Below are positions 5,287-60,816 of a stretch of DNA of 64,000 nucleotides, in pieces (positions within the stretch are counted from its first letter, which is position 1; each line of letters starts with the position of its first letter). A program made the translations under genes and the position numbers. Under the pieces are notes generated by a model that saw only the letters and a program-made list of their open reading frames with translations, was not told where the DNA came from and did no database searches. Origin of the DNA: a virus; the IMG/VR virus record IMGVR_UViG_3300049046_000039, positions 1-64,000 of that record. One strand, 5' to 3'.

Positions 5287-5492
5287 TCCTCGCTAAACAA
5301 AAGCGTCCCGTCATCGAATCGAATGCCAAGCTGGACTTCTGATTCGCGCATCACGACTCGCTGTCCTATGCGGTTCTTTACGACGACGTGTCTGACTAGC
5401 TCAGAGTCGTCGATGTCAGAGAACGTGCAGAGAACGGGTGAGACGATGTTCTCACCTAGACCGTTCACCCACTTCGCTACGACTCTGGCCAT
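5274..5492 (-). CDS. Hypothetical protein
   Basis: TGATG coupling at 5492. Confidence 0.55.
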   Translation of the reverse strand: MARVVAKWVNGLGENIVSPVLCTFSDIDDSELVRHVVVKNRIGQRVVMRESEVQLGIRFDDGTLLFSEEWKS

Positions 5493-39246: not shown

Positions 39247-39528
39247 TTACGTAGTGTATCCCTGATTAGCTAACTCGTAGCCATACATCATCATGCGGCA
39301 CTGAAGAGCGAAGTCTCGAACCTTACGATTAGTATCTAGCTTGTAAGCAGTTATAACTTCGTTAGACTGTAGCTCGTCAGTGGCTAGGCTGGCACAGACG
39401 AGAGCTCGCTGTGCTAACTCAGTGTCGGTAATATCCTGATCGTCATTAGGAACGATCAGTTGTTGCTGAGCATACAGCGCGGCCGGAACGCACACTAAGG
39501 CTGCAGCAGCTAAAAGCAGCTTCTTCAT
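39247..39528 (-). CDS. Secreted hypothetical protein
   Basis: Signal peptide MKKLLLAAAALV. Confidence 0.65.
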   Translation of the reverse strand: MKKLLLAAAALVCVPAALYAQQQLIVPNDDQDITDTELAQRALVCASLATDELQSNEVITAYKLDTNRKVRDFALQCRMMMYGYELANQGYTT

Positions 39529-39546
39529 ACAAATTTTCCTTGAAAA

Positions 39547-39874
39547 GTGGTGGGATTCTGTTGCTAGGTTCCCACCGGACCCCAGGACTCACTGCTTAGG
39601 CAGCGAGCGCAAGGACATTGTTGTCGTTTGCGGTTATTTTGTGTGGGCCTTAGCGTGGACCCAAACGATCTTCTCAGTCTAGCCTTCAGCGACCATCGAT
39701 CCTAGTTCGGCCCCATCAGAAGCAGTGGTTGGAAGTCTCTTCATACCAACTTTCATTAAGATCGTCTATAGCCAACCTTAAGACCGTCACTGCTTCTGGT
39801 GGAGCCGCCGGGTACTGCCCCCGGGTCTGATCTCCTATCGTTCAACTTCTGGCATATCTCTATGCCGCGAAGAT
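39547..39874 (-). ncRNA. ssrA: Two-piece (circularly permuted) tmRNA, alphaproteobacterial type; ends approximate
   Basis: T-arm and CGGCTCC-A-CCA (39797) precede the 5' GGGGCCG (39714); G3:U70 pair; tag ORF ANDNNVLALAA* at 39596-39631; promoter TTGACA-N17-TATAAATA. Confidence 0.92.
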
Positions 39875-39905
39875 AGAGTATTTATAACATAGCTTGACTA
39901 AAATG

Positions 39906-54233: not shown

Positions 54234-55391
54234 TCAAACAATAATGTGAGGAACGAATTTTGCAGTATTGCTAGTAATGAGGCCGTCCTCACGAATGCCC
54301 ATACCTACTGCAGCACCGTCGACCGACCAGACGCCGAGTACGGGATACTTACCACTGAACTCAGGAAGAGAGTAGCGCTCTTGATAGACGTAGCCGTCAG
54401 AACCGTACTCGCCACCGGTCGCGCTAAGAGTCTTACCGAACTGGTCCTTGACAAGGATGTTCGAACCTTCGCGAGCCAGAATAGGCTTCGAGACGTATCC
54501 GCTGGAGAAGTCACGATTGTTGACCGGAACTTCGAAGCTTGCGGCAAGGAGGTTCTTATGATTTGGGAACATCTTCCACAGAATCGGAAGAATCGCCTTG
54601 TTAGACCAGATCATCTTCCAGACAGGTTCGATCCACGTGGTGATGTCGGCTGAAGCGAGAATGTTGTTAGCGAACTTCTCGTTGACCATCCACTCCCAAG
54701 GATAGAGATGCTGAATCGTCGACATATGGTAATTGTCGAGATCAACGAAAGCTTCGCCATCCCAACCGATGTCGTTGATCAGAATACCGTGACTGATGAT
54801 GCCGGCTTCTTCTGCCATATCTCGCATGTAGGAGACATTGACGGCATCTTCACCGGCACCATCGTCGGCGTGAGTAAACCAGACGTGCTTCTCAGGAAGC
54901 AGAGGAGCGATGTACTTCCAGCGCTCGACGATAGCTTCGTGAATGCCATTGAACTGATCCACGCCCTCGCCGAACATGTCGTTCTTCCAGTGCCATTGGA
55001 CTACCGAAGCTTCGAGAAGACTGGTCGGAGTGTCGCAGTTGAACTCGAACATCTTGGGGTCGGTGCGACCGTCATAACCAAAGTCGAAGCGACCGTAGTT
55101 AAGAGCCGGTGGCTCGCTATCCCAAGTGTCGATAATGTACTGGTGGAAGTGAGGAGGAATCCCAAACTGGTTGAGGATGTGGTAGTTAGAGACGATATAG
55201 TCTCCAGCTACAATCATCATCTTGTAGCAGTTGTTAGCCGCTTCCTCAATTCTCTCGATGTCTGAAGACGAGAATGCGTAGTATGCGTCCTCGTTCCAGT
55301 AAGGTTCGGCCGAAGCACTGTGCCAGAGAAGACCCTGACCCTCGACGATCGCCTTCCAATTGTGGCGAGGAGTTGAAGAGTGACGCAGCAT
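54234..55391 (-). CDS. Glutathionylspermidine-synthase-family ATP-grasp protein (YgiC-like)
   Basis: YW.E..YY; GRFDF; FEFNCDTPTSLLEAS; LYPWEW; EP.WK...SNKA; KP...REG.N; GIRED. Confidence 0.9.
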   Translation of the reverse strand: MLRHSSTPRHNWKAIVEGQGLLWHSASAEPYWNEDAYYAFSSSDIERIEEAANNCYKMMIVAGDYIVSNYHILNQFGIPPHFHQYIIDTWDSEPPALNYGRFDFGYDGRTDPKMFEFNCDTPTSLLEASVVQWHWKNDMFGEGVDQFNGIHEAIVERWKYIAPLLPEKHVWFTHADDGAGEDAVNVSYMRDMAEEAGIISHGILINDIGWDGEAFVDLDNYHMSTIQHLYPWEWMVNEKFANNILASADITTWIEPVWKMIWSNKAILPILWKMFPNHKNLLAASFEVPVNNRDFSSGYVSKPILAREGSNILVKDQFGKTLSATGGEYGSDGYVYQERYSLPEFSGKYPVLGVWSVDGAAVGMGIREDGLITSNTAKFVPHIIV

Positions 55392-57336: not shown

Positions 57337-57413
57337 TGGTGCGCGTGACGGGACTCGAACCCGTGACGTCATGATTTTAGAGATCACCGCTCTTCCAACT
57401 GAGCTACACGCAC
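57337..57413 (-). tRNA. Amber suppressor tRNA (anticodon CUA)
   Basis: GTGCGTG-TA-GCTC..GAGC-G-GTGAT-CT[CTA]AA-ATCAT-GACGTC-ACGGG-TTCGAGT-CCCGT-CACGCGC-A-CCA. Confidence 0.9.
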
Positions 57414-57669: not shown

Positions 57670-57761
57670 CGGGTTGCCGTGTTTTCCACCATTGGAAAAC
57701 GCCTGTTTTGGCGGCGTTTATTGGAATCGAACCAATTAGTACGGTTTGCTGTAAGCAACCC
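57670..57761 (-). ncRNA. CAGCAA-stem RNA with a permuted T/acceptor/D tRNA-like module
   Basis: GGGTTGC-TTACAGCAAAC...GCAACCC-G; T arm ATTGG-TTCGATT-CCAAT; AAACGCC-GCCA-AAACA-GGCGTTT. Confidence 0.8.
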
Positions 57762-57770
57762 ATTTTTTTA

Positions 57771-57878
57771 CAGGATCAACTTGGTTTGTTGCCTTTACCG
57801 TTTGGCTATTCGTCGAAGTCGACAAAATGGGAATCGAACCCATAATACACAAATTGTGTGATTTGCTGAACTGATCCT
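57771..57878 (-). ncRNA. CAGCAA-stem RNA with a YrlA-like T/acceptor/D module
   Basis: AGGATCAG-TTCAGCAAAT...TTGATCCT-G; T arm, closed acceptor TTTGTCG-ACTT-CGACGAA, D arm TAGCCAAACGGTAAAGGC. Confidence 0.8.
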
Positions 57879-57887
57879 AAATTAGTA

Positions 57888-57984
57888 CAGGCTTCAGATT
57901 TAGGTGGGAATCGAACCCACACAGATCGATTAGAAGTCGATTGCTCTACCTTTGAGCTACTGAAAGGTTTGCTGTAAGAAGCCT
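57888..57984 (-). ncRNA. CAGCAA-stem RNA containing the D, anticodon (UCU, Arg) and T arms of a tRNA
   Basis: AGGCTTC-TTACAGCAAAC...GAAGCCT-G; promoter TTGACA-N17-TATAAT at 57994-58022. Confidence 0.8.
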
Positions 57985-58035
57985 TATAACCTAATTATAT
58001 AACTTTTGTCTAAGAATGTCAACTAGTTTTTTGCG

Positions 58036-58539
58036 TTAGCTAGTCGGCAGCTTAAGAGATTTTAGAGCAGCGATGCTCAGCGAGTTCTCGATCTTAAAGA
58101 TTCGATTGAGCTGAAGCGTAGAGCGTCTCCAGTGTGGAACCTTAAAGCTCTCGTACTCGTCCTTAATCTTTGATATGAAGTCTTGGCGAGCTACACCAGC
58201 AGCTCGATACTTATCCATCGCTTCTTTGTATTCTGGAGTTCCGGCCGGTGCCAGAGCCGCGTAGTCGGCCCACTTAGGATAGGCGTAGTCTTTAATGCGC
58301 TTATCGCTGTAGTAGTTCGGCACTTCAATACCAGTCTCGACGTGACGCCACTTAGTAGTGGGTTCGTACATCATTACTGTTACTGACTTACTGGTTCCAG
58401 TGGTAACAAATCCAGCGTAGACTGCAACTCTGGTATTGACATTGTGAGCGTATCCAGTGGTTACTGCTAGAACTTCTTCACCGACGTTAATAGTCTGCCC
58501 GATACTGTTAGTAAAGGGTTCACGAATTAACTTCTTCAT
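58036..58539 (-). CDS. Hypothetical protein
   Basis: AGGA RBS; sits between two ncRNA clusters. Confidence 0.7.
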   Translation of the reverse strand: MKKLIREPFTNSIGQTINVGEEVLAVTTGYAHNVNTRVAVYAGFVTTGTSKSVTVMMYEPTTKWRHVETGIEVPNYYSDKRIKDYAYPKWADYAALAPAGTPEYKEAMDKYRAAGVARQDFISKIKDEYESFKVPHWRRSTLQLNRIFKIENSLSIAALKSLKLPTS

Positions 58540-58556
58540 AATGATCCTATTGTTAG

Positions 58557-58684
58557 CAGGCTAGCTTTTGTGCTTTACGCGCTCTATCCAGCTGAGCTAC
58601 TCTCCCGCATGGTGGGAGAGGTGGGATTCGAACCACACGACCTCGTCCTTCTAATGGAATGCAATGAGTTGCTGAAACTAACCT
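58557..58684 (-). ncRNA. CAGCAA-stem RNA with a circularly permuted tRNA (degenerate anticodon arm)
   Basis: AGGTTAG-TTTCAGCAAC...CTAGCCT-G; T arm, CTCTCCC-A-CCA-TGC-GGGAGAG, TAGCTCAGCTGGATAGAGC. Confidence 0.85.
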
Positions 58685-58692
58685 AAAGTTAA

Positions 58693-58818
58693 CAGATTCG
58701 CTTTTTTATCTAACGTGCTACTATTACACCACACCCCGATAGATGGCCGGGGTGCCAGGAATTGCACCTGGACCTTTCCTTTAACAGAGGAATGATAGAG
58801 AGTTGCTGAAACGAATCT
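58693..58818 (-). ncRNA. CAGCAA-stem RNA with a complete circularly permuted tRNA-Asn(GUU)
   Basis: AGATTCG-TTTCAGCAAC...CGAATCT-G; anticodon arm, T arm, CACCCCG-G-CCA-TCTAT-CGGGGTG, D arm. Confidence 0.85.
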
Positions 58819-58821
58819 AAA

Positions 58822-58941
58822 TCACAGTGACCAGACGTCGGCGTCGTCTAAGCCGTCATCGTAGCCTTTTCGGTTTGTTGGATCGATAGCTGCGGCCAGA
58901 ACTATGAGGCCGAAAGAAACCAAGATAATGGTAGCAATCAT
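58822..58941 (-). CDS. Small single-TM protein (39 aa, not in ORF track)
   Basis: GGAGG RBS; MIATIILVSFGLIVLAAAIDP... Confidence 0.55.
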   Translation of the reverse strand: MIATIILVSFGLIVLAAAIDPTNRKGYDDGLDDADVWSL

Positions 58942-59051
58942 ACTATTAACCCTCCAAAACTCGTGTTAGCACTATAAGTGCAGCGTTGAACTGCTTTCCC
59001 TTATTGTGTCGAATATCGTGAGCGAACCAAGGTTTGCCCTCGGCGTCGTAT

Positions 59052-59088
59052 TGATCAGCCAGGAGGTTTCGTGCCTCCTGGCTGATCA
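59052..59088. terminator. Strong 15-bp hairpin after the DUF2828 gene (no U tract)
   Basis: TGATCAGCCAGGAGG/CCTCCTGGCTGATCA. Confidence 0.5.
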
Positions 59089-59096
59089 GAGATGAC

Positions 59097-60548
59097 TTAC
59101 CTGAAGTCATACTTAGACTGCATGACAGTCTTACGCATGATACCTTCGGGAGTCATGTCGTCGTAGTTAGCGCCGAGAACGGCCTTCATGATCGCTGGCG
59201 AGAAGCCAGAGACGAGGGCAGTTCCAGTCTCGTCGAATGAAACCGGCACGTTACCGTGAGAGTTGAGGTTCCAGAAGACTACTGCCGGAGCTTCGTAACC
59301 AGCACGACGGTACTCGTTACGGATCATCTCGATTGCTCGAGGGTCGTGAGCTTTCGCGCTAGAGCTCCAGCCGCCGCCACCAGTGCCTACGCACTGGTTG
59401 AACTGCATGTCAGACATGATTAGGAGCATCGTTGGCATTTCTGCCGCAGGCACCTTACCCTTGACTGCAGTATCGAGGATGCGATGGAGCGCCTTCTCGA
59501 GGTCGGTAGACATGTTCCAAGACGATCTCGCCATGGCGTTGTATCGCTGAGACAGCGTACCCTTGACGGTCACGAACTCAGGCTCACTGGAGAAGGTAAG
59601 GAACATGTCCTTGAACTTACCAGTGTTCTTGCTCGCGCAATAGAGACCTAGAGAGATCGCTACGTCGAGACAGGTGACATCCACGCCCTTCGTACCACCG
59701 CCGGCGCGGCAGCCCATAGAACCTGAAACGTCTACCAGAGGCAGAACGTTAGCGTCGCCGATAAAGTTAGGTAGAGCGTCCCACTGAGCGTTAGCCACGG
59801 TAGAGTCACCGTATCTCACGGTCTTGATGATGTCGTAAGGGTATACGGCACCAGCGTTGACCTTGACACCCTTGTCGCCACGCTTGAGAGCTTCCTTGTA
59901 TGCAGTGAACTGCGTAGGAGCCTTCTTAGCGAAAGCCTTGGTGTAGCGAGACATAGCCAGAGAAGGAACGTGGTTGAAGTTGATAGCTTCAAACTCACGG
60001 TTACACATCTGAGTCTCGACAACTCTCGTGAGGTTCACGAGCAGCTTGCGGTACTGCTTTGGAGACATTGCCATGAAGTTGCGCAGCTCTACAGCCTTAG
60101 CGCCCTTACGTGGCATCCACTTAGCGGCCAGACCATTACCGTTCTGGAGGTTCTCCTGAATGAGAGAGAACGCTACAGACTTCACTTCCTCGGTGTTGAA
60201 CACGAGAAGGTCGTCGAAGCGGCCCAGATCAGGAACACGCGACAGAAGGTTAGTCTTGGTGAGGTAGTCAGGGTTGACTTTCTCGAGATGGAGAAGGATG
60301 TCGCGGAAGAGCTTACGCTCACCGGCGCCGCCGCGGATGTCGCGAGCCCAGAGGGCGATACGGATAGCCAGTTCGCTGTCTTCTACCAGCGCCTTGTTGA
60401 AGAGGCCGGTAACGTCCTTGCCACGCATAGCGCCGATCTGACCAAAGAGGTCTACGTTGGCGCGCATGGTTGACTTGTATGCAGCCATGCCATTCGTGGT
60501 CTTGGTTTTTACAGGAGTGTTGTTTACTGCATTCGCAAAAGTATTCAT
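59097..60548 (-). CDS. DUF2828-family helical plus vWA protein (Ro60/TROVE-like architecture)
   Basis: T.NG; ARDIRGG.GER; AAKW.PR; VETQMC; VPS.AM.RY..AF; QW..L; MIDAS DVSGS; SDMQF; VFWNL; SGFSP. Confidence 0.88.
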   Translation of the reverse strand: MNTFANAVNNTPVKTKTTNGMAAYKSTMRANVDLFGQIGAMRGKDVTGLFNKALVEDSELAIRIALWARDIRGGAGERKLFRDILLHLEKVNPDYLTKTNLLSRVPDLGRFDDLLVFNTEEVKSVAFSLIQENLQNGNGLAAKWMPRKGAKAVELRNFMAMSPKQYRKLLVNLTRVVETQMCNREFEAINFNHVPSLAMSRYTKAFAKKAPTQFTAYKEALKRGDKGVKVNAGAVYPYDIIKTVRYGDSTVANAQWDALPNFIGDANVLPLVDVSGSMGCRAGGGTKGVDVTCLDVAISLGLYCASKNTGKFKDMFLTFSSEPEFVTVKGTLSQRYNAMARSSWNMSTDLEKALHRILDTAVKGKVPAAEMPTMLLIMSDMQFNQCVGTGGGGWSSSAKAHDPRAIEMIRNEYRRAGYEAPAVVFWNLNSHGNVPVSFDETGTALVSGFSPAIMKAVLGANYDDMTPEGIMRKTVMQSKYDFR

Positions 60549-60567
60549 GTTGTATTCTCCTAATTCA

Positions 60568-60622
60568 CGGGCTCAGTTTGGTTTGCTGTTTTCCGAAAGC
60601 TATGAGTTGCGGAATTGAGCCC
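60568..60622 (-). ncRNA. Minimal C(C/A)GCAA-stem element in the 5' UTR of the DUF2828 gene
   Basis: GGGCTCA-ATTCCGCAAC...TGAGCCC-G, about 20 nt before the ATG. Confidence 0.7.
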
Positions 60623-60630
60623 TAATAAAA

Positions 60631-60816
60631 CGGGATGCGCGGCTTGCTTACTGCCTGCTGAACTAGCCACACGTCGCAGTGACCTCGATCTCTTATTCGG
60701 AGGAGCACCTACACCGTTTATGCTCATGAAACGGTACAATTGGGACGGCGGCCGAAGCCCCGCCGATCGCTAGAAGACCTCGTTAGAGGCCGGTCAGTTT
60801 TTGCTGAAGTCATCCC
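60631..60816 (-). ncRNA. Large CAGCAA-stem RNA with multi-hairpin, non-tRNA cargo
   Basis: GGGATG-ACTTCAGCAAAA...CATCCC-G; internal TAAC- and TTCG-capped hairpins. Confidence 0.7.

What the first reader, a model, noticed from the sequence alone, without database searches (positions are those of the whole stretch)
58693..58818. Complete circularly permuted tRNA-Asn(GUU) with an internal CCA
Read 5'-3': anticodon arm TTCCT-CT[GTT]AA-AGGAA, variable AGGT, T arm CCAGG-TGCAATT-CCTGG, acceptor 3' strand CACCCCG, discriminator G, CCA, linker TCTAT, acceptor 5' strand CGGGGTG, TG, D arm GTGT-AATAGTA-GCAC. Every tRNA element is present but opened between the D and anticodon arms, where the CAGCAA handle is inserted. 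GUU with G73 matches Asn identity. Permuted tRNA genes are known in some algae and an archaeon. Inference: removing the 5-nt linker would give a chargeable two-piece tRNA, as happens for two-piece tmRNA.
Basis: partly seen in the sequence, partly recalled or inferred. Interest (0 to 1): 0.85.

Follow-up and report, generated by a model that had tools for sequence, protein, structure and literature searches.

The report
Permuted tRNA mimic on Ro60-like handle
This 126-base phage gene does encode every part of an asparagine-type tRNA in rotated order, but it is most likely a tRNA-shaped partner RNA (a Y RNA) of the Ro60-like ring protein encoded 280 bases upstream, not a working tRNA.

Summary
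On the minus strand of 58693-58818 every tRNA element is present in the order anticodon arm, T arm, closed acceptor hairpin, D arm. Joining the halves the normal way gives a cloverleaf that ARAGORN calls tRNA-Asn(GUU).

The unit is one of seven cassettes in the window, nine in the 115.8-kb virus record. All share a 7-8 bp closing stem followed by U(U/A)C(A/C)GCAA. They flank a DUF2828/DUF7788 protein whose predicted fold is Ro60/TROVE. Relatives of this protein lie in 507 IMG/VR stretches and 710 deposited phage records.

Across 13 units the closing stem, T, acceptor and D helices covary strongly, and tertiary pairs 15:48 and 18:55 covary too. The closest known kind is YrlA, a Ro60-bound Y RNA already described as a circularly permuted tRNA.

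What is new here is a self-closed anticodon-like hairpin and an encoded N-CCA in the acceptor loop. N-CCA occurs in 9 of 18 units (binomial 1e-11). That fits RNase P nicking, as shown for M. smegmatis YrlA.

Decoding is unlikely. The record has a normal tRNA-Asn(GUU), the anticodon differs in every ortholog, one ortholog lacks CCA, and E has G55/A18 where all 34 working tRNAs have U55/GG.

This scan has noted the same family in at least 209 other genomes.

The parts
58812..58818 (-). Closing stem, 5' strand (AGATTCG)
   Evidence: Pairs with 58694-58700. The same stem position pairs in 13 of 13 aligned units, with changes on both sides in 5 of 7 pairs. G2 and U5 are invariant.
58803..58810 (-). 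Handle UUCAGCAA, single-stranded, directly after the closing stem
   Evidence: It sits at the same offset (bases 9-16) in all seven cassettes of the window and in units of related phages. Positions C11, G13, C14 and A15 are invariant. It stands where YrlA has its Ro60-contact motif GNCGAAN0-1G (PMC4201824).
58776..58792 (-). Anticodon-like arm TTCCT-CUGUUAA-AGGAA (GUU at 58783-58785)
   Evidence: A 5-bp stem with a 7-nt loop carrying U33 and A37. In relatives the hairpin and the U33/R37 pattern persist in 8 of 9 units, but the triplet varies.
58755..58771 (-). T arm CCAGG-UGCAAUU-CCUGG, with G at position 55
   Evidence: The stem covaries. G55 is always found with A18 in the D loop: 3 of 3 units, plus 2 in G001.
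58732..58754 (-). Acceptor hairpin: 3' strand CACCCCG, loop G-CCA-UCUAU, 5' strand CGGGGUG
   Evidence: A 7-bp stem. All 7 pairs show changes on both sides across 13 units, with 98.9% of cells paired. N-CCA opens the loop in 9 of 18 units. The CCA lies at 58744-58746.
58715..58729 (-). D arm GUGU-AAUAGUA-GCAC, with A14 and A15, and A where G18 usually stands
   Evidence: The stem is 98% paired with 3 of 4 pairs covarying. A15 goes with U48, the last base of AGGU; across units the 15:48 pair is A:U in 9 and G:C in 6 of 18.
58693..58714 (-). G26, A-rich tail (UUAGAUAAAAAAG), closing stem 3' strand CGAAUCU and a final G
   Evidence: The A-rich stretch before the 3' strand and the G after it recur in all cassettes.
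59097..60548 (-). Gene for the 483-aa Ro60-like protein (DUF2828 + DUF7788; PHROG 850 'RNA-binding protein'), the proposed partner
   Evidence: Pfam hits at E 2e-43 and 3.7e-25. PHROG 850 at 6.5e-148. AlphaFold model with pLDDT 77. The top 13 Foldseek PDB matches are all Ro60/TROVE, best E 7e-9 and TM 0.6.
58557..58684 (-). Neighbouring unit D: same frame, permuted tRNA-like body with A-CCA in the acceptor loop
   Evidence: Sub-threshold match to Rfam YrlA (31.4 bits, E 4.4e-4). Un-permuted it is called tRNA-Leu(tag).

Best explanation
Unit E is a Y-RNA-like small RNA of a phage Ro60-like ribonucleoprotein, and its cargo is a complete tRNA mimic.

Proposed steps:
1. It is transcribed on the minus strand, probably together with the Ro60-like gene and unit D. 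Tandem cassettes are separated by about 9 A/U-rich bases, where they could be cut apart (inferred).
2. The 5' and 3' ends pair into a 7-8 bp closing stem. The stem, the unpaired UUCAGCAA and the opposite A-rich strand form the docking site of the Ro60-like ring protein (inferred from co-occurrence, conservation and analogy with Ro60/Y RNA).
3. The rest folds into a tRNA L-shape, with the closing stem leaving the body between positions 26 and 27 (shown by helix and tertiary-pair covariation).
4. The 7-bp acceptor hairpin with G-CCA, a 5-nt linker and U at -1 is probably nicked by host RNase P and trimmed back to CCA. That would give a two-piece RNA held together by the acceptor and closing stems (inferred; shown experimentally only for M. 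smegmatis YrlA).
5. The tRNA-shaped module then presents a tRNA look-alike to tRNA-binding factors while tethered to the Ro60-like protein. The factors could be processing or modifying enzymes, synthetases, or host tRNA-cutting defence nucleases.

It does not serve as the phage's decoding tRNA-Asn.

My odds for the steps:
- Ro60-like partner RNA: 0.75
- L-shaped fold: 0.85
- Nicking to a free CCA end: 0.5
- Aminoacylation: 0.15
- Ribosomal decoding: under 0.05
For: Shared frame: seven cassettes in the window share the frame, and their closing stems differ in sequence but always pair. Two more lie in the record's main tRNA array.

Protein partner: the adjacent protein has the Ro60/TROVE fold. 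The frame recurs on the protein's strand next to its homologs in IMG/VR contigs and in cultured Ralstonia phage RSP15.

Covariation on 13 units: 90.6% of cells are paired against 65% in shuffles, the covariation score is 0.737 against 0.226, and 0 of 500 shuffles reach it. Slid controls give 35-48% paired.

Tertiary pairs: 15:48 is A:U in 9 and G:C in 6 of 18 units. G55 goes with A18 in 3 of 3 units, and U55 with GG in 14 of 15.

Relation to YrlA: units D and B give sub-threshold hits to Rfam YrlA.

The other permutation: a 283-kb phage (G001) carries the same RNA in tRNA order. It is open at an A-CCA acceptor end, and the handle stem is capped by a loop between the D and anticodon arms.

CCA signal: N-CCA occurs in 9 of 18 units, binomial 1e-11. 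It is present in 9 of 11 long loops and 0 of 7 short ones.

Literature: YrlA RNAs lie within 4 kb of Ro60 on the same strand. M. smegmatis YrlA is cut by RNase P and carries CCA (PMC4201824). YrlA has been called a circularly permuted tRNA (10.1101/312249). Phage Ro60 binds phage Y-like RNAs (PMC12135203).

Against decoding:
- The record has a canonical tRNA-Asn(gtt) at 100455-100531.
- All 34 canonical tRNAs have a TTC T loop and a GG D loop, which E lacks.
- The triplet differs in every ortholog.
Against: - No experiment or RNA read bears on this locus, so binding to the Ro60-like protein is inferred only.
- E gives no hit to Rfam YrlA even at E <= 10.
- The handle is not the published GNCGAAN0-1G motif.
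- The units were collected by a scan that demanded paired T, acceptor and D stems. The percentage paired in those helices is therefore partly built in. The covariation and the strand and shuffle controls are not.
- Retention of a tRNA-grade anticodon loop (U33, R37) and of N-CCA is more than a pure elbow mimic would need. This leaves room for charging or for recognition at the anticodon.
- GUU with G73 does fit AsnRS identity rules (established knowledge, not tested here).
Confidence: 0.7

Rival explanations
1. E is a true two-piece tRNA-Asn. RNase P and 3' trimming remove the 5-nt linker, AsnRS charges the CCA end, and the nicked RNA decodes AAC/AAU on the ribosome, as two-piece tmRNA works in trans-translation.
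For: ARAGORN accepts the un-permuted cloverleaf. It has a canonical anticodon loop CUGUUAA, G73 and an encoded CCA. All 34 tRNA genes of this phage also encode CCA. N-CCA is statistically retained in the family. M. smegmatis YrlA is nicked and CCA-tailed. The same phage has a permuted two-piece tmRNA gene.
Against: A normal tRNA-Asn(gtt) is present. The four closest orthologs carry TAG, TGG, ATC and TTC instead of GTT, and one lacks CCA. E has G55 and A18 instead of the U55 and G18 found in 34 of 34 working tRNAs here. About 45 extra nucleotides with a protein-docking frame leave the body at the 26/27 hinge. The same frame carries non-tRNA cargo in cassettes F and G.
Confidence: 0.06
2. E is a permuted pre-tRNA of the algal kind. 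The closing stem and handle are cut out, the ends at 26/27 are ligated into a circle, and the acceptor loop is then opened to give an ordinary one-piece tRNA.
For: The topology is that of Cyanidioschyzon permuted tRNA genes. Wang et al. raised this possibility for YrlA (10.1101/312249). The tRNA-ordered relatives in G001 would then carry the handle hairpin as an intron-like insert.
Against: The junction is a stem with a large asymmetric internal loop, not a bulge-helix-bulge motif (sequence). No splicing endonuclease is known in bacteria. The handle and both strands of its loop are conserved far better than an excised spacer would need to be. The arguments against a fixed decoding role also apply.
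Confidence: 0.04
3. E is a stand-alone decoy: a tRNA look-alike that soaks up host tRNA-targeting defence nucleases or anticodon-modifying enzymes. The Ro60-like protein is only a stabiliser or is unrelated.
For: The anticodon-loop shape (7 nt, U33, R37) is kept while the triplet changes quickly between close relatives. That is the pattern expected in an arms race. UGU in the loop of E and of L179 is the motif shared by Asn, Asp, His and Tyr tRNAs (established knowledge). The phage invests heavily in tRNA supply: 34 tRNAs and a tmRNA.
Against: Nothing here identifies a host nuclease. The strict linkage of the frame to the Ro60-like gene argues that the protein is part of the function. A free-drifting triplet is explained equally well by lack of constraint.
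Confidence: 0.12
4. E is a decaying by-product of tandem duplication in a tRNA array, with no function of its own.
For: Its non-canonical T and D loops could be read as decay. One ortholog has lost CCA.
Against: All five helices are intact. Compensatory changes occur across phages whose Ro60-like proteins are only 49-73% identical. The unusual G55/A18 pair is itself conserved and covaries. Controls on the opposite strand and on shuffles are near zero.
Confidence: 0.04

Closest known systems
YrlA Y RNAs bound by bacterial and mycobacteriophage Ro60/Rsr (Rfam RF02553; Chen et al. 2014, PMC4201824; Wang et al. 2018, 10.1101/312249)
   Same: Both are encoded next to, and on the strand of, a Ro60-type protein gene. 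The 5' and 3' ends pair. A short conserved single-stranded motif follows the 5' strand. The tRNA-like body runs in the order T arm, closed acceptor stem, D arm, with 15:48 and elbow contacts. The published description is 'circularly permuted tRNA with a closed acceptor'. M. smegmatis YrlA, with a 7-bp acceptor stem, is cut by RNase P and gains CCA.
   Different: - E has its own closed anticodon-like stem-loop, whereas YrlA 'lacks the anticodon loop'.
- In E the terminal stem leaves at the 26/27 junction instead of continuing the anticodon stem.
- The full N-CCA is encoded in the loop.
- The motif is UUCAGCAA, not GNCGAAN0-1G.
- The protein falls in Pfam DUF2828/DUF7788, not the TROVE model.
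- E does not score against RF02553.
- The RNAs come in arrays of up to seven with varied cargo.
Thermus phage phiLo Ro60 with Yrl1/Yrl2 (PMC12135203; PDB 9KOP, 9L5Y)
   Same: It is a phage-encoded Ro60-fold protein, and its structures are the two best structural matches to the protein here. It has Y-like RNAs encoded beside the gene, each a terminal stem flanking a bulge with a short motif.
   Different: Its motif is CGAA. No tRNA-like module is reported for Yrl1 or Yrl2 in the passages I read.
Circularly permuted tRNA genes of Cyanidioschyzon merolae and Thermofilum
   Same: The 3' half precedes the 5' half, and the acceptor ends are joined by a short linker that must be opened.
   Different: Those mature through a bulge-helix-bulge cut and ligation into a circle, and end as ordinary decoding tRNAs. 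Here there is no such motif, the joining element is conserved as a protein handle, and the anticodon is not conserved.
Two-piece (permuted) tmRNA of Alphaproteobacteria, present in this window at 39505-39889
   Same: It is a permuted gene whose product works as two base-paired pieces with a free CCA end. It is precedent that nicked tRNA-like RNAs can be charged.
   Different: tmRNA has a tag reading frame and pseudoknots and no anticodon arm. E has none of the tmRNA-specific parts.
Deinococcus radiodurans Yrn1 (Chen et al. 2014)
   Same: It is a Ro60-bound Y RNA modelled with a T arm and a possible 5-bp 'anticodon arm'.
   Different: Its loop has 6 nt, not 7. No clear D arm or variable region is present, and the orientation of the arms differs.

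Membership tests
YrlA-class Y RNA (Rfam RF02553; Chen et al. 2014) | Encoded within about 4 kb of a Ro60 ortholog and on the same strand | tested here: met
   E ends 279 nt downstream of the 483-aa gene on the same strand. The protein has a Ro60/TROVE fold: top 13 PDB matches, best E 7e-9.
YrlA-class Y RNA (Rfam RF02553; Chen et al. 2014) | Terminal 5'/3' stem with the conserved motif GNCGAAN0-1G near the 5' end | tested here: not met
   The terminal stem is present and covaries. The motif, however, is U(U/A)C(A/C)GCAA in all cassettes. It has the same place and a different sequence.
YrlA-class Y RNA (Rfam RF02553; Chen et al. 2014) | tRNA-like domain in the order T arm, closed acceptor stem, D arm, with tRNA tertiary pairs | tested here: met
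   The 15:48 and 18:55 pairs covary.
YrlA-class Y RNA (Rfam RF02553; Chen et al. 2014) | Anticodon-stem equivalent runs on into the Ro60-binding stem, with no anticodon loop | tested here: not met
   E closes its anticodon-like stem with a 7-nt loop, and the terminal stem leaves between G26 and U27. Some relatives (B, L169, L191) do use the YrlA arrangement.
YrlA-class Y RNA (Rfam RF02553; Chen et al. 2014) | Score at or above the Rfam gathering threshold (69 bits) | tested here: not met
   E gives no hit at E <= 10. Neighbour D scores 31.4 bits and B scores 24.5 bits.
YrlA-class Y RNA (Rfam RF02553; Chen et al. 2014) | Physically bound by the Ro60 ortholog | not testable with these tools
   Needs co-immunoprecipitation or a gel-shift assay.
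Working elongator tRNA (tRNA-Asn) | Cloverleaf with 7-bp acceptor, D, anticodon and T arms, discriminator and CCA | tested here: met
   This holds only after un-permuting. ARAGORN then calls tRNA-Asn(gtt).
Working elongator tRNA (tRNA-Asn) | Near-universal U55 in the T loop and G18 in the D loop | tested here: not met
   E has G55 and A18. All 34 canonical tRNAs of the same record have TTC and GG.
Working elongator tRNA (tRNA-Asn) | Anticodon conserved among orthologs | tested here: not met
   The orthologous units carry TAG (L143), TGG (L141), ATC (L140) and TTC (L142).
Working elongator tRNA (tRNA-Asn) | Aminoacylation and use on the ribosome | not testable with these tools
   Needs an acid-urea northern blot, AsnRS charging and ribosome association.
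Permuted tRNA genes of the algal/archaeal kind | 3' half upstream of 5' half, joined through the acceptor ends | tested here: met
Permuted tRNA genes of the algal/archaeal kind | Bulge-helix-bulge motif formed by leader and trailer, for endonuclease cutting and circularisation | tested here: not met
   Leader and trailer form a 7-8 bp stem followed by a large internal loop, with UUCAGCAAC... opposite ...AAAAAAG. There is no pair of 3-nt bulges around a 4-bp helix.

The most novel reading that the evidence does not exclude
The Ro60-like particle of these phages carries a genuinely tRNA-active RNA. E would be nicked by RNase P, expose its encoded CCA and be aminoacylated. The particle would then be coupled to a synthetase, to EF-Tu or to the ribosome, or would offer a charged bait to host anticodon nucleases. 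The fast-changing anticodon would be the specificity-determining part.
Probability: 0.15. Interest if true: 0.8.

Novelty: new variant of a known kind. Interest (0 to 1): 0.55.

Why it matters
What the tRNA-like half of bacterial Y RNAs is for has been an open question since 2014. This phage branch offers new handles on it. The mimic here is complete: it has an anticodon-type loop and an encoded CCA. It exists in both circular permutations and comes in arrays with different cargo. It also sits beside a protein family found in hundreds of deposited phages, where it is annotated only as 'RNA-binding protein' or hypothetical. Those phages include cultured ones such as Ralstonia phage RSP15. That makes the questions directly testable: is the RNA nicked, is it charged, and what does it recruit? 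For genome annotation, such units should not be called tRNA genes or pseudogenes.

Tried and rejected
- blastn of 58000-59200 against deposited phages gave no match.
- Sequencing runs: no RNA holder is listed. The holders are Logan contigs of DNA metagenomes, so I did not lay reads and there is no evidence on expression or RNA ends.
- RNA ligase search: RtcB, Rnl2-type and T4 Rnl1-type ligases gave no match in the virus record, which is 64% complete. The Rnl1 control rang nowhere, so that search is uninformative.
- An exact-pattern scan of IMG/VR for E's T arm gave at least 116 stretches, almost all chance palindromes. Only L095 (the L003 contig) and L074 (G001) were relevant.
- I tested whether E is a recent copy of the phage's own tRNA-Asn. 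It is not: global alignment score 6, and its best match is an unrelated tRNA-Leu.
- MAFFT could not align the anticodon-like hairpin across the family (54.7% paired). I analysed that hairpin unit by unit instead.
- phmmer of the protein against PDB sequences found nothing useful. Only the fold comparison showed Ro60.
- A literature search for DUF2828 found only plant and genome-survey mentions. A search for 'permuted tRNA' plus bacteriophage found no phage case.
- KVP40's homologous gene has no cassette with this frame within 3 kb.

Full report
**1. Observation**

The window is the first 64 kb of a 115.8-kb IMG/VR virus record. Read on the minus strand, 58818-58693 holds the following, in order:
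- a 7-nt strand AGATTCG
- UUCAGCAA and a 10-nt spacer
- a 5-bp hairpin with the loop CUGUUAA
- AGGU
- a T arm CCAGG-UGCAAUU-CCUGG
- CACCCCG, G, CCA, UCUAU, CGGGGUG
- UG
- a D arm GUGU-AAUAGUA-GCAC
- G, an A-rich tail, CGAAUCU and G

ARAGORN and Rfam see nothing at this spot in the native order. When the two halves are joined in tRNA order, ARAGORN calls tRNA-Asn(gtt). RNAfold recovers the closing stem and all four arms by itself (z = -2.81).

**2. Context changes the reading**

E is one of seven minus-strand cassettes in the window (A to G, 57670-60816). All are built alike. Each has a 7-8 bp closing stem whose sequence differs from copy to copy but always pairs. U(U/A)C(A/C)GCAA follows at bases 9-16, then a variable module, then an A-rich strand, the 3' strand and a G. 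The modules differ:
- A and B carry T-acceptor-D mimics.
- C carries a tRNA-ordered Arg(UCU)-like body that scores 55 bits on the Rfam tRNA model.
- D and E carry whole permuted tRNAs.
- F is a bare hairpin.
- G is a 186-nt structured RNA.

Two more small cassettes lie in the record's main tRNA array.

The cassettes flank a 483-aa gene (59097-60548, minus strand). It matches Pfam DUF2828 and DUF7788 and PHROG 850 'RNA-binding protein'. Its AlphaFold model has mean pLDDT 77. The 13 best Foldseek matches to that model in the PDB are exclusively Ro60/TROVE structures. They are led by the Ro60 of Thermus phage phiLo, followed by Deinococcus Rsr and Xenopus and human Ro60.

Units D and B also give sub-threshold matches to Rfam YrlA (31.4 and 24.5 bits).

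**3. Relatives**

The protein has relatives in 507 IMG/VR stretches and 710 deposited phage records. These include 95 Mycobacterium phage records, Vibrio phage KVP40 and Ralstonia phage RSP15.

I scanned 99 loci around these genes for the architecture 'frame + T arm + 7-bp hairpin + D arm'. It gave 17 distinct units on the gene's strand, 1 on the opposite strand and 0 in shuffled sequence.

On an alignment of 13 units:

| Helix | Cells paired | Pairs changed on both sides |
|---|---|---|
| Closing stem | 100% | 5 of 7 |
| Acceptor stem | 98.9% | 7 of 7 |
| D stem | 98% | 3 of 4 |
| T stem (inner 4 pairs) | 96% | 2 of 4 |

No shuffle out of 500 reached the observed covariation score, and sliding the partners drops pairing to 35-48%. 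The units were picked by a scan that required paired T, acceptor and D stems. Their percentage paired is therefore partly built in. The covariation and the strand and shuffle controls are not.

Tertiary contacts covary as well. Position 15 with 48 is A:U in 9 units and G:C in 6 of 18. The odd G55 of E's T loop always comes with A in place of G18: 3 of 3 units, plus two in G001. U55 comes with GG in 14 of 15. L141 and L143 are almost identical elsewhere but differ in exactly this pair. The body therefore folds as a tRNA L-shape.

**4. The permutation is real and goes both ways**

A 283-kb phage contig (G001) has two tandem RNAs just upstream of its own homologous gene. They have E's T arm (CCAGG-UGCAAGU or UGCAAAU-CCUGG) and D arm, but in normal tRNA order. 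The acceptor is open and ends in A-CCA. The handle stem is capped by a loop and inserted between the D arm and the anticodon-like hairpin. With the insert removed, ARAGORN calls them tRNA-Val(tac) and tRNA-Pro(tgg).

E is the same RNA opened at the other helix. A tandem pair of tRNA-ordered units is an obvious source for E: N-CCA, a ~5-nt spacer and then the next +1 (inference).

**5. Is the acceptor loop opened?**

N-CCA starts the acceptor loop in 9 of 18 distinct units, all with different acceptor stems. The binomial probability is 1e-11 at a chance rate of 0.019. It is present in 9 of 11 loops of 7 nt or more and in 0 of 7 shorter loops. The base before +1 is U in 6 of those 9, the base bacterial RNase P favours (established knowledge).

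So there are two forms: tightly closed mimics, and units built like a pre-tRNA 3' end joined to a short 5' leader.

The literature gives direct precedent. M. smegmatis YrlA has a 7-bp acceptor stem. It is cut at that site by RNase P in vitro, and in vivo it exists as two Rsr-bound halves, the 5' one ending in CCA (PMC4201824; 10.1101/312249).

I put it at about 0.5 for E. Its ortholog in L140 has lost the CCA, so the feature is not indispensable.

**6. Is it a working tRNA-Asn?**

Probably not, for these reasons:
- The record has 34 canonical tRNAs, including tRNA-Asn(gtt) at 100455-100531. E is not a close copy of it.
- All 34 have a TTC T loop and GG in the D loop. E has neither.
- The units at the same position in the four closest relatives (proteins 69-73% identical) read TAG, TGG, ATC and TTC. 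More distant ones read GTA and TGA.
- What is kept is the shape. Of the nine units whose hairpin has at least 3 bp and a 7-nt loop, 8 have U33 and a purine at 37.
- The frame that interrupts the body at 26/27 is conserved in sequence on both strands and is shared with non-tRNA cargo. I take it to be the part under primary selection.

No RNA ligase was found in the record that could support an algal-type cut-and-join maturation. The record is incomplete, so this is recorded only as tried.

**7. Comparison with what is known**

The closest known kind is YrlA. It is a Ro60-bound Y RNA encoded beside the Ro60 gene. [quoted passage not shown]

E works like a YrlA but fails several membership tests:
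- It has a different handle motif.
- It does not score against the Rfam model.
- It has an anticodon-type stem-loop of its own.
- Its terminal stem leaves at 26/27 rather than continuing the anticodon stem.
- It has a fully encoded N-CCA.
- Its protein falls outside the Pfam TROVE model.

I found no paper on DUF2828 proteins in phages or on permuted tRNAs in phages. [quoted passage not shown]

I therefore class E as a new variant of a known kind. This scan's own index shows that other agents have described the same handle family, in both permutations, in at least 209 other genomes. My analysis was done independently of those notes and agrees with them.

**8. Verdict**

The best explanation, at confidence 0.7, is a tRNA-shaped Y-like RNA of a phage Ro60-like particle. 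Interest is 0.55. The concept is published, but this variant carries the two tRNA features that YrlA lacks and sits in a large, uncharacterised phage family with cultured members. That makes the long-open question of what the tRNA mimic does experimentally approachable.

Noticed in passing
window 57994-58022 (minus strand): A perfect sigma-70 consensus promoter (TTGACA, 17 nt, TATAAT; 12 of 12) lies 10 nt upstream of cassette C. Cassettes C, B and A may form their own strongly transcribed unit.
   Followed up: no
window 57888-57984 (minus strand): Cassette C carries a tRNA-ordered Arg(UCU)-like body that scores 55.2 bits on Rfam tRNA. Only 4 of 7 acceptor pairs form, and the closing stem extends the acceptor end. 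This is a third way of joining the frame to a tRNA body.
   Followed up: partly
G000:C1:92575-92638 and 93040-93104 (minus strand, outside the window): Two further small cassettes with the same frame and a plain hairpin cargo sit inside the record's main tRNA array, 32 kb from the Ro60-like gene.
   Followed up: partly
L138 (G001:C1:70500-75500), minus strand about 2330-2584 of the reverse complement: Two tandem tRNA-ordered, A-CCA-ended RNAs lie upstream of a homologous Ro60-like gene in a 283-kb phage. The handle is a loop-capped arm between the D and anticodon arms.
   Followed up: partly
L219:5278-5405 and 5415-5468 (Ralstonia phage RSP15, NC_030948.1 about 86516-86706): A cultured, deposited phage has an unannotated permuted tRNA unit with G-CCA and a 12-nt linker, plus a small hairpin cassette. 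Both lie about 1 kb downstream of its 'RNA-binding protein' gene inside the tRNA array.
   Followed up: partly
window 39505-39889 (minus strand): A permuted two-piece tmRNA gene of the alphaproteobacterial type (130.8 bits, tag ANDNNVLALAA). It hints at an alphaproteobacterial host.
   Followed up: no
window 57337-57413 (minus strand): An intact tRNA with anticodon CUA, an amber suppressor by sequence, lies just downstream of cassette A. Other first-reader notes link it to TAG-interrupted ORFs. I did not test that.
   Followed up: no
window 54234-55391 (minus strand): A 385-aa ORF matches PHROG 6215, glutathionylspermidine synthase (E 9e-112). This is an unusual auxiliary gene for a phage.
   Followed up: no
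L218 about 2870-2900 (Vibrio phage KVP40, upstream of KVP40.0300): KVP40's homolog of the Ro60-like gene has no cassette with this frame nearby. A T-arm-like hairpin (ACACGGGTTCAAATCCGTGT) sits just upstream of the gene.
   Followed up: no
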